Shown: positions 1-3,098 of the stretch, in pieces
Position numbering within the stretch: position 1 is the first letter of the stretch
Layout: every line of letters starts with the position of its first letter
Source of the DNA: a virus
Taxonomy: Duplodnaviria; Caudoviricetes
DNA length: 64,000 nucleotides
IMG/VR virus record: IMGVR_UViG_3300020576_001330
Location: 451 to 64,450 of that record
Reading direction: 5' to 3' (one strand)
The notes under the pieces: model-generated
What the model was told of the DNA's origin: nothing
Database searches by the model: none
What the model saw: only the letters and a program-made list of their open reading frames with translations
Made by a program: the position numbers and the translations under genes

Positions 1-726
1 AGAAAATTTGTAATGGGAGATATTCACGGTTCATATAAAGCATTATTACAATGTTTAGAACGAAGTGGATTCAATAAAGAAGAAGACGAGTTAATCCAAC
101 TTGGTGATGTTTGTGATGGCTGGTCTGAAGTATATGAATGTGTTGAGGAACTTTTAACTATAAAGAATTTAATTACTATTAGAGGAAATCATGATCAATG
201 GTTTTATGAATTCATTAGAACTGGGATTCATGGATCACAATGGACTCAAGGTGCAGATGCTACAAGAGATTCATATGGAAAAAGAAGCATGATGATTCCA
301 GAGTCCCATGAGAAATTTTTTGGAACACAAATGAATTATTATGTTGATGAAGAAAACAGGTGTTTTGTTCATGGTGGATTTAACAGACATTTAAGTGTAA
401 AAGATCAAACATATTCTCATATCTATTATTGGGATAGGGATTTGTGGTACTCTGCATTGTCATTTGCAGCCACTATAAGAGGTAATAAAGATATAGATAC
501 TCCAAGAGTTATTAAAACAGCTGATAAGTTTAAAGAGATCTATATAGGTCATACAGCTACAACAGCTTGGGATAAGGATACTCCAATGCAGGCTGGTAAT
601 ATTTGGAATTTAGATACAGGTGCTGGATTTAAAGGAAGATTAACTATTATGGATATAGATAACAAAGAATTTTGGCAATCTGATCCTGTTCAAGAGCTAT
701 ACAAAAATGAAAAAGGAAGAAACTAA
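1..726 (+). CDS. Calcineurin-like metallophosphoesterase (phage Ser/Thr phosphatase family), probably 5'-truncated by the window edge
   Basis: GDIHG, GDVCD, RGNHD, FVHGG and IGHT motifs. The frame is open from base 1 (RKFVMGDIHG), so the real start probably lies upstream of the ATG at 13. Confidence 0.9.
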   Translation, partial: RKFVMGDIHGSYKALLQCLERSGFNKEEDELIQLGDVCDGWSEVYECVEELLTIKNLITIRGNHDQWFYEFIRTGIHGSQWTQGADATRDSYGKRSMMIPESHEKFFGTQMNYYVDEENRCFVHGGFNRHLSVKDQTYSHIYYWDRDLWYSALSFAATIRGNKDIDTPRVIKTADKFKEIYIGHTATTAWDKDTPMQAGNIWNLDTGAGFKGRLTIMDIDNKEFWQSDPVQELYKNEKGRN

Positions 727-1664
727 TGAAAACATTAAACCTAGCATATCCTGATAAATCAGATATAAAATACAAAATAAGTAAATTTCCTGATGGGCAA
801 CAGAATATTGTTATTGAGCCTACTTATTGGATTACAGATCAATTAACTATTACAGCTGTAACAATCAAATCACGTCTTAACAACTGGCGTGATTTAGAAC
901 TTATTACTTGTGCTGTAGCATCATTACGCGAATTAGGAATTGAAGAAATTCATCTTTATACTCCTTATATTATGGGTGCTAGAAGTGATAGAAAATTTGA
1001 AGAGGGTGGAAATAATTATCTTAGAGATGTTATTTGTCCTATCATTAACTCTTTAAACTTTAAATCAGTAACTTGTATTGACCCACATAGTGATGTGCTT
1101 GAAGCTTGTATTAAAGGGTTTAGAAAAGAATCTAATTTAAGTTTGCTTAAATGGGCATTATATGATCCTGCATTACAAGGTATTTATAAAATTGGTGATA
1201 ATTTAAATAATTTTAATTTAATATCACCTGATGCAGGTGCAAGTAAAAAAATCTATAAATTAGCTGATCAAATTGGTTATAAAGGAGATATTATCACTTG
1301 TAGTAAAGAGAGAGATGTTGATGGTAAATTAACTAAAGTTAATGTTCCATTTTCAGAAACTGATTATCAAGGTAAAGATTTTATTATAATTGATGATATA
1401 TGTGATGGAGGAGCTACCTTTATTAATATTGCTAAAGAGCTAAAAATAGAAAGTAAGGGGAAGATTTATCTCATAGTAACTCATGGTATATTCTCAAAAG
1501 GATTCACAGAGTTATCTAAATACTTTGATGGTATTTACTGTACTAATAGTTATTCTGATTTAAATGGACATTATTATCCTGAAGGTGAAGATTTTTCATC
1601 AGGAGATAGAGGCTTCCCTGTTAAAGAAATATCAAATTTAGTTAAACAATTAAATATATTTTAA
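726..1664 (+). CDS. prs: Ribose-phosphate pyrophosphokinase-like protein (PRPP synthetase fold; candidate Adps, ADPR-PP synthetase)
   Basis: KFPDGQ, PYIMGARSDRKF, DPHS, SPDAGA and the PRT loop IIIDDICDGGATF, plus LIVTHGIFS. Confidence 0.9.
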   Translation: MKTLNLAYPDKSDIKYKISKFPDGQQNIVIEPTYWITDQLTITAVTIKSRLNNWRDLELITCAVASLRELGIEEIHLYTPYIMGARSDRKFEEGGNNYLRDVICPIINSLNFKSVTCIDPHSDVLEACIKGFRKESNLSLLKWALYDPALQGIYKIGDNLNNFNLISPDAGASKKIYKLADQIGYKGDIITCSKERDVDGKLTKVNVPFSETDYQGKDFIIIDDICDGGATFINIAKELKIESKGKIYLIVTHGIFSKGFTELSKYFDGIYCTNSYSDLNGHYYPEGEDFSSGDRGFPVKEISNLVKQLNIF

Positions 1665-2080
1665 TGCAAACATTAACCACAATAAAAGAACTTTTAAGTA
1701 ATACTAAATTTACTTTATTTGATCAGAGATTTCAATTCCTTGTAATGGCAAAAGGAGATGGATTCCTTATTCAATTAGAGTGCTGGATGAAGTGTAATAT
1801 CCATAATCAATATGGCTGGCAAAAAGGAGGTAAATATTATATTTCATCACATGCTATTAATGATGAGATTATATTAACTGCCTGGAAAGCTTGTCAAGAT
1901 TTTATAATGCATGAAGCTCGTGAAACATTTACTTATAAAAATCAAACTATTTTTCATCCTCATTATGATATTGAAGAATTAGTTGAGTTTTGTGAAACTG
2001 CAAGAGTTTCAAAAAGACCACACAATTTAATAGCAGAACATATTCAATCAGTACAAACAGCACAAGATATAGACATATGA
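1664..2080 (+). CDS. Conserved phage hypothetical protein
   Basis: 138-aa ORF coupled by TAATG overlap; GKYYISSH...EIILTAWKA...HEARETF...IFHPH pattern recognised from phage proteins of unknown function. Confidence 0.75.
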   Translation: MQTLTTIKELLSNTKFTLFDQRFQFLVMAKGDGFLIQLECWMKCNIHNQYGWQKGGKYYISSHAINDEIILTAWKACQDFIMHEARETFTYKNQTIFHPHYDIEELVEFCETARVSKRPHNLIAEHIQSVQTAQDIDI

Positions 2081-2150
2081 ACCCATTACTATTAGTAGAT
2101 TTTTACAAACCACATTAGAAGAAATACGAAATAAATTAAAATTAATTTAA
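2077..2150 (+). pseudogene. nadV: Deletion scar of a nicotinamide phosphoribosyltransferase-like gene (NAMPT/NadV/Namat)
   Basis: ATG 2077 reads MNPLLLVDFYK (NAMPT N-terminal L-x-D-x-Y-K motif), then stops at 2116-2118. A second frame from 2109 reads TTLEEIRNKLKLI-stop (NAMPT-like C-terminal TLxEIR helix) ending at 2150. ATGA and TAATG overlaps with both neighbours are intact. Confidence 0.7.
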
Positions 2151-2566
2151 TGTCTTTAATAGTAATATTTGCAATTATATTTATTCATTGGTTTGGAGAC
2201 TTTGTTCTCCAAACTGATGAACAAGCTAAAAAGAAAAGTACAGATTGGAGGTATTTAATACGACATACTTTTAATTATAGTTTTACTTGGTTCTTAATAG
2301 GTACTATCTGGAGTATAGTTTCTAATATTTATACAAGTATTTATACAAATAATACTTATCTATTTAGCTGGTGGTTTGTCTGGGTATTTAGTTTTATAAC
2401 TTTTATAACACATACAATAACAGATTATTTCACAAGTAGATTAAATTCTAAATTATGGGCTAAAGGAGATGTACATAACTTCTTTGTATCTATAGGATTT
2501 GATCAAGTTTTACATTATGTACAATTATTTTTAACTTATCAATTATGTGTACAAATATTCTCTTAG
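2150..2566 (+). CDS. DUF3307-like membrane protein
   Basis: HWFGDFVLQ, HTITDY and GFDQVLH motifs; several hydrophobic helices. Confidence 0.75.
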   Translation: MSLIVIFAIIFIHWFGDFVLQTDEQAKKKSTDWRYLIRHTFNYSFTWFLIGTIWSIVSNIYTSIYTNNTYLFSWWFVWVFSFITFITHTITDYFTSRLNSKLWAKGDVHNFFVSIGFDQVLHYVQLFLTYQLCVQIFS

Positions 2567-2661
2567 GAGTAATTATAGGATTATGCATAGGTATTCCAAT
2601 TGGAATGATCTATGAAGATTTGTTTGATAAAATGGATTTAAGGGGGAGGAGAAAAAAATGA
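2545..2661 (+). CDS. Small single-pass membrane peptide, 38 aa (not in ORF track)
   Basis: MCTNILLGVIIGLCIGIPIGMIYEDLFDKMDLRGRRKK: hydrophobic helix with repeated GxxxG and a basic tail. Confidence 0.45.
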   Translation: MCTNILLGVIIGLCIGIPIGMIYEDLFDKMDLRGRRKK

Positions 2662-2712
2662 TATATTTATCAAAAGAATACAATATAATCAGGGAAATAA
2701 AAAATTTTAAAA

Positions 2713-3039
2713 ATGGCAAAAAAATATCCAAAATTACCACTTAGATTTAAAACTAAGTGGATTAAGGCTCTTAGATCTGGGAAGTATCAGCAGGGCCAAT
2801 ATAAATTATATAATAAAGAAAATAAGACATACTGTTGCTTGGGAGTAGCTTGTAGTATTAGTGGAGTTGCAGATAAGGAATTTAGGCTGTTTGGTATGAT
2901 AGATGGTGAATTAAGAAAAAATCCTAAAATTCCTGAAGTTTTGCTTGGGACAAATACTTTAACTAATAAATTAGTACATTTTAATGACTCTGGTTACTCA
3001 TTTAAAAGAATAGCTAACTGGATTGAGAAAACTTTATAA
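2713..3039 (+). CDS. Conserved phage hypothetical protein
   Basis: KWIKALRSGKYQQG...YCCLGVAC...FNDSGYSFKRIANWIE pattern seen in diverse phages. Confidence 0.75.
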   Translation: MAKKYPKLPLRFKTKWIKALRSGKYQQGQYKLYNKENKTYCCLGVACSISGVADKEFRLFGMIDGELRKNPKIPEVLLGTNTLTNKLVHFNDSGYSFKRIANWIEKTL

Positions 3040-3069
3040 TACTTTTTTAGTTTGGTTTGTTTTTTAATT

Positions 3070-3098
3070 AAAGAGGGGATGTGAAAGTCCCCTCTTTT
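3070..3098 (+). terminator. Intrinsic terminator at the convergence of the two arms (possibly bidirectional)
   Basis: AAGAGGGGA-TGTGAAAG-TCCCCTCTT perfect 9-bp stem followed by T-run; overlaps the stop codon of the convergent ORF. Confidence 0.8.

What the first reader, a model, noticed from the sequence alone, without database searches (positions are those of the whole stretch)
2077..2150. 74-nt fossil of a deleted NAMPT/Namat gene two genes after the Adps-like gene
Seen: the gap between two ORFs encodes MNPLLLVDFYK in one frame and TTLEEIRNKLKLI-stop in another, joined near 2106-2110. The ATGA overlap with the upstream gene and TAATG overlap with the downstream gene are preserved. Known: NAMPT proteins begin with L-x-D-x-Y-K-x-x-H and typically end in a TLxEIR helix. 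Inference: nearly the whole NAMPT-like gene was excised while translational coupling was kept, recording loss of an anti-defence NAD-reconstitution pathway. ORF callers would miss this.
Basis: partly seen in the sequence, partly recalled or inferred. Interest (0 to 1): 0.8.

Follow-up and report, generated by a model that had tools for sequence, protein, structure and literature searches.

The report
Deletion scar of phage Namat gene
The 74-base gap is the real leftover of a roughly 1.5-kb nicotinamide-transferase (NAMPT/Namat-type) gene whose middle was deleted from a crAss-like phage, and related phages carry other scars of the same NAD-rebuilding gene pair, so this counter-defence pathway is being lost repeatedly.

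Summary
Window 2077-2118 is a 13-codon ORF that matches the conserved N-terminus of phage NAMPT/Namat proteins. Window 2109-2150, in another frame, encodes their last 13 residues plus the stop. Position-specific scores built from 17 intact homologues give 35.1 and 33.5 bits. The next best sites in all six frames of the 64-kb window score 7.8 and 15.0, and the shuffle maxima are 15.0 and 15.8. An independently assembled metagenome contig (L053, 99% identical) has the identical junction, so this is not a collapse peculiar to this contig. L053 has additionally lost the neighbouring Prs/Adps-like gene and keeps only its ends. A more distant relative (L054) has a 46-codon in-frame Namat stub at the same position directly upstream of the DUF3307 gene, plus an Adps stub. 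Intact partners of homologous Prs-like genes carry the published Namat signature, so the lost gene was probably the Namat half of NARP1. The junction (2105-2115) can be assigned to both ends, which suggests deletion at 5-11 nt of microhomology. No intact allele was found between the same neighbours. The contig is about 66% complete, so a second copy elsewhere is not excluded. This is a clean pseudogene scar of moderate interest.

The parts
13..726 (+). Calcineurin-like (NinI-like) metallophosphatase gene, first gene of the tightly packed + strand operon; its stop overlaps the start of the next gene
   Evidence: Pfam PF00149 E 3e-11; phrog_246 E 6e-43. Homologues lie within 6 kb of the Prs-like gene in about 10 of 34 related loci.
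726..1664 (+). Intact Prs/Adps-like gene (312 aa), now without a partner
   Evidence: PF14572 and PF00156; phrog_619 E 6e-63. It is 55-69% identical to Prs-like genes whose neighbours are Namat-type. R86/R89, H121, D169, K194, D223, D224 and D227 are present; residue roles from PMC13586617.
1664..2080 (+). ORF138, a small conserved gene of unknown function between the Adps-like gene and the scar
   Evidence: 16 homologues; phrog_1540. AF2 model has pLDDT 82 with no PDB fold match. Elsewhere it is not linked to Prs/NAMPT.
2077..2118 (+). 5' fossil: start codon and first 11-13 codons of the NAMPT/Namat gene, now a 13-codon mini-ORF ending in TAG; ATGA overlap with ORF138
   Evidence: PSSM 35.1 bits against a runner-up of 7.8. 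36 of 39 nt identical to the start of the intact gene in L048.
2105..2115 (+). Deletion junction; these bases can be assigned to either the 5' or the 3' part (microhomology of 5 to 11 nt)
   Evidence: The 5' homologue L048 matches through 2115. The 3' homologues L022 and L054 match from 2105/2106 onward. The ancestral repeat is inferred, not observed.
2109..2150 (+). 3' fossil: last 13 codons and stop of the NAMPT/Namat gene, in a different frame from the 5' fossil; TAATG overlap with the DUF3307 start
   Evidence: PSSM 33.5 bits against a runner-up of 15.0. 28-29 of 33 nt identical to the 3' ends of intact genes in L016, L029, L036 and L022.
2150..2566 (+). DUF3307 membrane protein gene, the downstream neighbour whose start context the 3' fossil preserves
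   Evidence: PF11750 E 2e-7; phrog_2470. Same position relative to the stub in L054.

Best explanation
The 74 bases are a pseudogene scar. An ancestor of this Crassvirales-like phage carried an operon of metallophosphatase, Adps-like (Prs-like), ORF138, Namat-like (NAMPT family) and DUF3307. A single internal deletion of about 1.4-1.6 kb, not a multiple of three, removed the whole catalytic body of the NAMPT-family gene.

The deletion probably arose by slippage or illegitimate recombination between a short direct repeat present near both ends of the gene (bases 2105-2115 fit both ends). What survives is the start codon region, which overlaps the stop of the upstream gene, and the last 13 codons, which overlap the start of the downstream gene. 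The likely reason is that deletions reaching into those overlaps would damage the neighbours.

No enzyme can be made from the remnant. At most a 13-residue peptide is translated. The two-enzyme NAD-reconstitution pathway (NARP1-type: ADPR to ADPR-PP by Adps, then ADPR-PP plus nicotinamide to NAD+ by Namat) is therefore broken in this genome, leaving an apparently intact orphan Adps-like gene.

Shown: the scar, its homology, its presence in a second assembly, and other scars in relatives. Inferred: the Namat (rather than Nampt) identity, the microhomology mechanism, and the selective reason why the ends survive.
For: - Termini match: 35.1 and 33.5 bits, each the top site in 64 kb by a wide margin; alignment of 18 intact homologues showing both conserved termini.
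- Context: an intact 497-599-aa NAMPT-like gene lies next to or near homologous Prs-like genes.
- Same junction, 101/101 nt identical, in the independent contig L053.
- Different stubs of the same gene: L054, 46 codons in frame, directly upstream of DUF3307; L018, C-terminal about 16 codons with ATGA overlap to the next gene; L009, an internal piece plus the C-terminal piece.
- Adps-like stubs occur in L053 and L054 and in L032, L033 and L035.
- No PF04095 match anywhere in the 64,450-nt record, with a positive control of 5/5.
- Namat signature GS[FY]TYQYNTRD in 15 of 18 intact partners, matching the consensus given in PMC12774641 section 23.
- A Prs (PF14572) plus Nampt operon is NARP1 according to bioRxiv 10.1101/2024.02.11.579819.
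- Crassvirales affinity: the terminase is 47% identical to crAss-like phages only. The cultured crAss-like phage DAC15 has NAMPT, a hypothetical gene and Prs together.
Against: - No intact allele was found between the same two neighbours, so the ancestral state is reconstructed from more distant loci whose gene orders differ.
- The record is about 66% complete, so an intact NAMPT/Namat could lie in the missing third.
- No reads were available, so a coexisting long allele cannot be excluded.
- The Namat-versus-Nampt call cannot be made on the 26 surviving residues.
- The N-terminus is most like one clade of homologues and the C-terminus is equally like another. The 'PH' that extends the microhomology is seen in only one intact homologue, L048, which was itself found by searching with the remnant's own pattern.
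Confidence: 0.9

Rival explanations
1. Assembly collapse or mixed population: the real phage has a full-length gene, and the assembler jumped between the two ends.
For: No reads could be inspected. Bases 2105-2115 could be a short repeat.
Against: A repeat of at most 11 nt is far below assembler k-mer sizes. An independently assembled ENA contig (L053) is a different strain: 98.7-99.2% identical, with its Prs-like gene also deleted. It has exactly the same junction. Other relatives have different stubs. A coexisting long allele in the population is still possible but would not change what this allele is.
Confidence: 0.04
2. Two-step decay: the window allele is not one 1.5-kb deletion but a second small deletion (about 60 nt) inside an older L054-like 46-codon in-frame stub inherited from a common ancestor.
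For: The window's retained parts (13 + 13 codons) are nested within those kept in L054 (15 + 31 codons). Both lineages share the neighbourhood of ORF138, stub and DUF3307.
Against: The junction bases CCACAT match the 5' end of an intact gene (L048) as well as the 3' end, which fits a single event equally well. The window lineage still has an intact Adps-like gene while L054 does not. Divergence between the two lineages is large (76-89% nt). The two histories cannot be told apart with these data.
Confidence: 0.3
3. The remnant is retained because it is functional now, as a translated leader or spacer that keeps ribosomes on the operon and provides the initiation region of the DUF3307 gene. It would then be more than a neutral scar.
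For: In the window, L054, L018 and L009 the surviving 3' end abuts or overlaps the start of the next gene. In the window, L053 and L054 the surviving 5' ends overlap or abut the previous stop. All 26 surviving residues are still consensus-like.
Against: The frameshift ends the mini-ORF 31 nt before the next ATG. There is no variation between the window and L053 with which to test constraint. Survival of the ends is also expected from simple filtering of deletions that damage neighbours.
Confidence: 0.15
4. Chance resemblance of an AT-rich intergenic spacer to NAMPT termini.
For: The peptides are short.
Against: Each is the top-scoring site in six frames of 64 kb by 18-27 bits over the runner-up and over all shuffles. 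They are adjacent, ordered and next to the partner gene. DNA identity to real gene ends is 28-36 nt of 33-39.
Confidence: 0.005

Closest known systems
NARP1 (Adps + Namat) of coliphage Bas63 and Bacillus phage SPbetaL1 (Osterman et al., bioRxiv 10.1101/2024.02.11.579819; structures PMC12774641, PMC13586617)
   Same: A Prs-family gene (PF14572) is paired in one operon with a NAMPT-family gene. Intact partners in relatives carry the published Namat clamp-helix signature. The residues shared by PRPS and Adps are present in the window enzyme.
   Different: Here the Namat half is reduced to 26 codons in two frames, so the pathway cannot run. An unrelated 138-aa gene sits between the two. The window Prs-like protein is only about 30-35% identical to those of Felix O1-like coliphages. 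No enzyme assay exists for this clade.
NARP2 / NadV-type phage Nampt (Vibrio phage KVP40)
   Same: Same NAMPT fold family; the conserved N-terminal D-x-Y-K-x-x-H and C-terminal T-L-x-E-I-R features are family-wide.
   Different: NARP2 pairs Nampt with an Nmnat, not with a Prs-like gene. No Nmnat was looked for or seen near the scar. Relatives' partners have the Namat signature rather than Nampt-like sequence.
NAMPT - hypothetical - Prs module of the cultured crAss-like Bacteroides phage DAC15 (NC_055832)
   Same: Crassvirales genome with the same two families separated by one small gene.
   Different: Opposite gene order. The intervening gene is not homologous to ORF138. Both enzymes are intact.
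Pseudogene remnants formed by deletion between short direct repeats (a general phenomenon in bacteria and phages; from general knowledge)
   Same: Internal deletion, frameshift, loss of the catalytic body, and a junction compatible with microhomology.
   Different: Both gene ends are preserved to the base where they overlap neighbouring genes. The same two genes show several separate scars in related phages.

Membership tests
NAMPT/Namat protein family (PF18127 + PF04095) | Conserved N-terminal segment (L-x-D-x-Y-K-x-x-H) | tested here: met
   35.1-bit PSSM match at 2077, top of all six frames; alignment.
NAMPT/Namat protein family (PF18127 + PF04095) | Conserved C-terminal helix (T-L-x-E-I-R) followed within about 5-10 residues by the stop | tested here: met
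   33.5-bit PSSM match at 2109, with the stop 13 codons after the first T.
NAMPT/Namat protein family (PF18127 + PF04095) | Catalytic phosphoribosyltransferase domain present | tested here: not met
   No PF04095 match in the whole 64,450-nt record, with a positive control of 5/5. Only 74 nt lie between the neighbours. It is therefore a remnant of a member, not a member.
Namat subfamily (ADPR-PP-specific) | Selectivity-clamp helix signature G-S-X-phi-X-phi-X-phi-T-R-D (PMC12774641) | not testable with these tools
   The region is deleted in the window. It is present in 15 of 18 intact partners of homologous Prs-like genes, so the Namat identity of the lost gene is inferred.
NARP1 operon | Adps-clade Prs-like gene in the same operon | tested here: inconclusive
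   PF14572/phrog_619 and conserved active-site residues are present, and relatives are paired with Namat-type genes. No tree against cellular Prs and no Adps reference sequence were available. The PDB search returned only cellular PRPS, at E 7e-12 or weaker.
NARP1 operon | Both enzymes intact | tested here: not met
   The Namat partner is reduced to a frameshifted 26-codon scar.
Deletion pseudogene | Intact homologues in relatives, a disrupted frame here, and the same allele in an independent sequence | tested here: met

The most novel reading that the evidence does not exclude
In this environmental Crassvirales-like clade the Adps-like enzyme has a role that does not need Namat. One possibility is that it works with the co-operonic metallophosphatase on ADP-ribose-derived molecules; another is that it acts as a genuine PRPP synthetase. 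That would explain why the partner is lost again and again while the Prs-like gene stays intact: 8 of 32 informative loci lack an intact partner, against the 3% reported for sequenced phages. On this reading, boundary-preserving internal deletions are the regular way these tightly overlapping operons shed accessory genes.
Probability: 0.2. Interest if true: 0.6.

Novelty: new member of a known kind. Interest (0 to 1): 0.4.

Why it matters
The scar is direct sequence evidence that a phage counter-defence pathway (NAD reconstitution) can be discarded. Three related genomes give a small natural series. The window has lost Namat. L053 has the same loss plus a later Adps loss. L054 has different scars in both genes. 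This allows an order of loss to be read, and it shows that orphan Adps-like genes are far commoner in these uncultured phages than the 97% co-occurrence reported for sequenced phages suggests. For annotation, 'Prs-like gene present' should not be scored as 'NARP1 present'. It also shows that short inter-ORF gaps in overlapping phage operons can hold datable gene fossils that ORF callers never report. It does not reveal a new mechanism.

Tried and rejected
The contexts of the 16 ORF138 homologues from the large protein collection, including one at 90% identity on a 17.5-kb contig, could therefore not be read. This was the best chance of finding an intact allele.
- Single-protein searches of viral contigs with ORF138 and with the C-terminal 500 aa of the adjacent 1752-aa protein found no relatives.
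- A degenerate DNA pattern for 'ORF138 end overlapping a NAMPT start' found nothing in viral contigs.
- ORF138 relatives in jumbo-phage contigs, Saprospiraceae MAG contigs and other MAGs have no Prs/NAMPT nearby.
- L055 (68% ORF138) has a frameshifted ORF138 and an unrelated downstream gene.
- I tested whether ORF138 is a NARP1 accessory such as the Macro-domain phosphatase Adpp. It has no Pfam hit, its AF2 model has no PDB fold match, and it is not homologous to the gene between NAMPT and Prs in DAC15. Rejected for lack of evidence.
- The apparent Prs-NAMPT fusion in L005 was an artefact of my ORF extension; a stop separates the two genes.
- The PDB sequence search did not return an Adps entry, so no direct Adps comparison was made.
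- One literature search, for NARP1 loss, was badly worded and gave nothing useful.
- Low-threshold PSSM scans found no further stubs in nine Prs-only or Prs-stub loci.

Full report
**What is in the sequence.** The + strand of window 1-3040 is a tightly packed operon. It holds a calcineurin-like phosphatase (13-726), a Prs-like gene (726-1664), a 138-aa ORF (1664-2080), a DUF3307 membrane protein (2150-2566), a 38-aa ORF and a 108-aa ORF. Almost every junction is a stop/start overlap.

The one gap is 2081-2149. ATG 2077 overlaps the upstream TGA as ATGA and opens a 13-codon ORF ending at TAG 2118. In the frame whose codons start at 2109, the sequence encodes 13 residues and TAA 2148-2150, which overlaps the DUF3307 ATG. 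The 5' part may be 13 residues rather than 11. The mini-ORF ends 31 nt before the next start, so literal coupling to the downstream gene is broken.

**Is it more than chance?** Searching IMG/VR with the Prs-like protein gave 34 loci. Most have a 497-599-aa NAMPT-family gene beside or near the Prs-like gene. Their aligned termini show the family-wide N-terminal and C-terminal motifs.

PSSMs were built from 17 of these proteins, all found independently of the remnant. They score the window's 5' part at 35.1 bits and its 3' part at 33.5 bits. The runners-up in all six frames of the 64-kb window score 7.8 and 15.0, and the maxima over 20 shuffles are 15.0 and 15.8. At the DNA level the 5' part shares 36 of 39 nt with the start of the gene in L048. 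The 3' part shares 28-29 of 33 nt with the ends of the genes in L016, L029, L036 and L022. Chance is excluded.

**Is it an assembly artefact?** A profile of ORF138 homologues retrieved two informative metagenome contigs.
- L053 is an ENA assembly, 98.7-99.2% identical to the window on both sides. It is identical over the 101 nt centred on the scar.
- L053 is a different strain. Its Prs-like gene is reduced to the first 38 nt and the last 13 nt or so, within a 29-codon ORF, and an extra 180-aa ORF precedes that stub.

The same junction in a distinct genome from a separate assembly, together with a possible repeat of at most 11 nt, argues strongly against a collapse.

**Relatives with other scars.** L054 has ORF138 at 91% aa identity. 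It carries the following genes in order: phosphatase, two small ORFs, a Prs stub (first 22 codons plus a short 3' piece), ORF138, a 97-aa ORF, a 46-codon ORF and DUF3307.

That 46-codon ORF is an in-frame fusion of the first 15 and last 31 codons of a NAMPT-family gene.

Other loci show further scars:
- L018 keeps only the last 16 codons or so, with an ATGA overlap to the next gene.
- L009 keeps an internal piece and the C-terminal piece.
- L032, L033 and L035 have Prs-like stubs.

Five further contigs have a full Prs-like gene but no PF04095 match anywhere in the contig, and one of them is 94% complete (positive control 5/5). They also have no terminal stubs.

Of the 32 informative loci, the tally is:

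| Partner state | Loci |
|---|---|
| Single-ORF partner | 19 |
| Partner split by inserts | 5 |
| Stub | 3 |
| None | 5 |

On a Prs-like tree the partner-less loci are scattered, with modest support and long branches. That implies several independent losses. Osterman et al. report a Namat next to 97% of Adps-clade genes in sequenced phages, so this clade departs from that figure.

**What the lost gene was.** A phage operon of a PF14572 Prs-like gene and a Nampt-like gene is the NARP1 pathway. Adps pyrophosphorylates ADP-ribose, and Namat joins ADPR-PP to nicotinamide to remake NAD+.

The published Namat-specific clamp-helix consensus is matched by 15 of the 18 intact partners. The window's Prs-like protein has the residues that the Adps structure paper lists as shared with PRPS and hits phrog_619 at E 6e-63. 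It is only distantly similar to cellular PRPS structures.

The lost gene was therefore most probably a Namat. The diagnostic region is deleted, however, and I built no Adps/Prs tree, so this step is an inference. The phage itself is Crassvirales-like: the terminase hits only crAss-like phages, at 47%, and there is a 4490-aa ORF. The cultured crAss-like phage DAC15 has NAMPT, a hypothetical gene and Prs together.

**How the deletion happened.** The window reads TAC AAA CCA CAT TAG in the 5' frame and CAA ACC ACA TTA in the 3' frame. The intact 5' end in L048 matches through CAT (2115). The intact 3' ends in L022 match from CAA (2106), and the 3' side in L054 supports at least ACAAA (2105-2109).

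Between 5 and 11 nt can therefore be assigned to both ends. That is what a deletion between short direct repeats would leave, and it explains the frameshift. The size is about 1.4-1.6 kb, judged from relatives' gene lengths.

This is a model; the ancestral sequence was not found. A two-step history through an L054-like 46-codon stub is not excluded.

**Why the ends survive.** In the window and in L054, L018, L009 and L053, the pieces kept are those that overlap or abut the neighbours' stop and start codons. The simplest reading is filtering: deletions that reach into the overlaps damage the neighbours and are lost. A positive role for the remnant, as a leader or initiation region, is possible but untested.

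**Limits.**
- The record is 66% complete, so another NAMPT copy could exist off-contig.
- No reads were available.

**Verdict.** This is a real, well-supported gene fossil of the Namat half of a NARP1-type pathway in an uncultured crAss-like phage. It is accompanied in relatives by further scars of both genes. It is a new example of a known kind of thing, useful for the evolution and annotation of phage anti-defence genes, and of moderate interest.

Noticed in passing
window 2658-2744 (compare L054:3694-6110): A second scar in the same operon. The first 9 codons of the window's 28-aa ORF (25 of 27 nt identical) are the start of a 424-aa RNA ligase gene in L054. L054 has RNA ligase (PF09414), a PNKP kinase-phosphatase (PF25109 + AAA_33) and an 80-aa ORF between the p38 and p108 homologues. 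The window lacks these 2.4 kb. This looks like loss of an RNA-repair module that left a 5' stub. The direction (deletion versus insertion) was not proven.
   Followed up: partly
L053:2873-3415 and L018:6927-7415: Homologous ORFs of 180 and 162 aa (54% identity, E 4e-55) with no Pfam or PHROG family. Each lies directly beside a stub: the Adps stub in L053, and in place of the Namat body in L018. The family was seen in no other fetched locus. It may be a gene that replaces its neighbour on arrival.
   Followed up: partly
L003:1885-4682; also L006, L010, L028, L029: NAMPT/Namat genes interrupted by inserts of 0.2-1.2 kb. In L003 the insert holds a reverse-strand 216-aa HNH-like ORF and a 122-aa ORF, and the gene is split into ORFs of 293 and 290 aa. 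Whether these are introns, inteins or true splits is unknown.
   Followed up: partly
L002, L014, L019, L021, L024 (whole contigs): Full-length Prs/Adps-like genes in contigs with no NAMPT-family domain at all, one contig being 94% complete. Orphan Adps-like genes seem common in this clade, against the 3% reported for sequenced phages.
   Followed up: partly
window 13-726 and homologues in L004, L005, L015, L016, L019, L023, L024, L030, L033, L053, L054: A NinI-like metallophosphatase is often in or next to the Prs/NAMPT module, and is stop/start-overlapped with the Prs-like gene in the window. The published NARP1-associated phosphatase is a Macro-domain protein, not this family. A parallel role is conceivable but untested.
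   Followed up: no
window 2150-2566 and L008, L023, L026, L032, L035, L036, L037: DUF3307 membrane protein genes recur within a few kb of Prs/NAMPT genes in varying order. Their function is unknown.
   Followed up: no
window 1664-2080; L061-L067: ORF138 has homologues at 51-55% identity on contigs binned into Saprospiraceae (Bacteroidota) MAGs, a possible hint at the host group. Its AF2 model (pLDDT 82; helix, three-stranded sheet, long helix) has no PDB fold match. The copy in L055 is frameshifted.
   Followed up: partly
window 863-1547 vs Leptolyngbya phage Lbo-JY46 (L001): The Prs-like gene shares 76.5% nucleotide identity over 685 nt with a cyanophage gene. That is unexpectedly high for phages of different host phyla. 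The cyanophage also has a NAMPT-family gene 1.5 kb upstream.
   Followed up: no
window 3071-3097: A G+C-rich inverted repeat between the convergent + strand operon and the 1752-aa minus-strand gene looks like a bidirectional terminator. This was read and not scanned.
   Followed up: no
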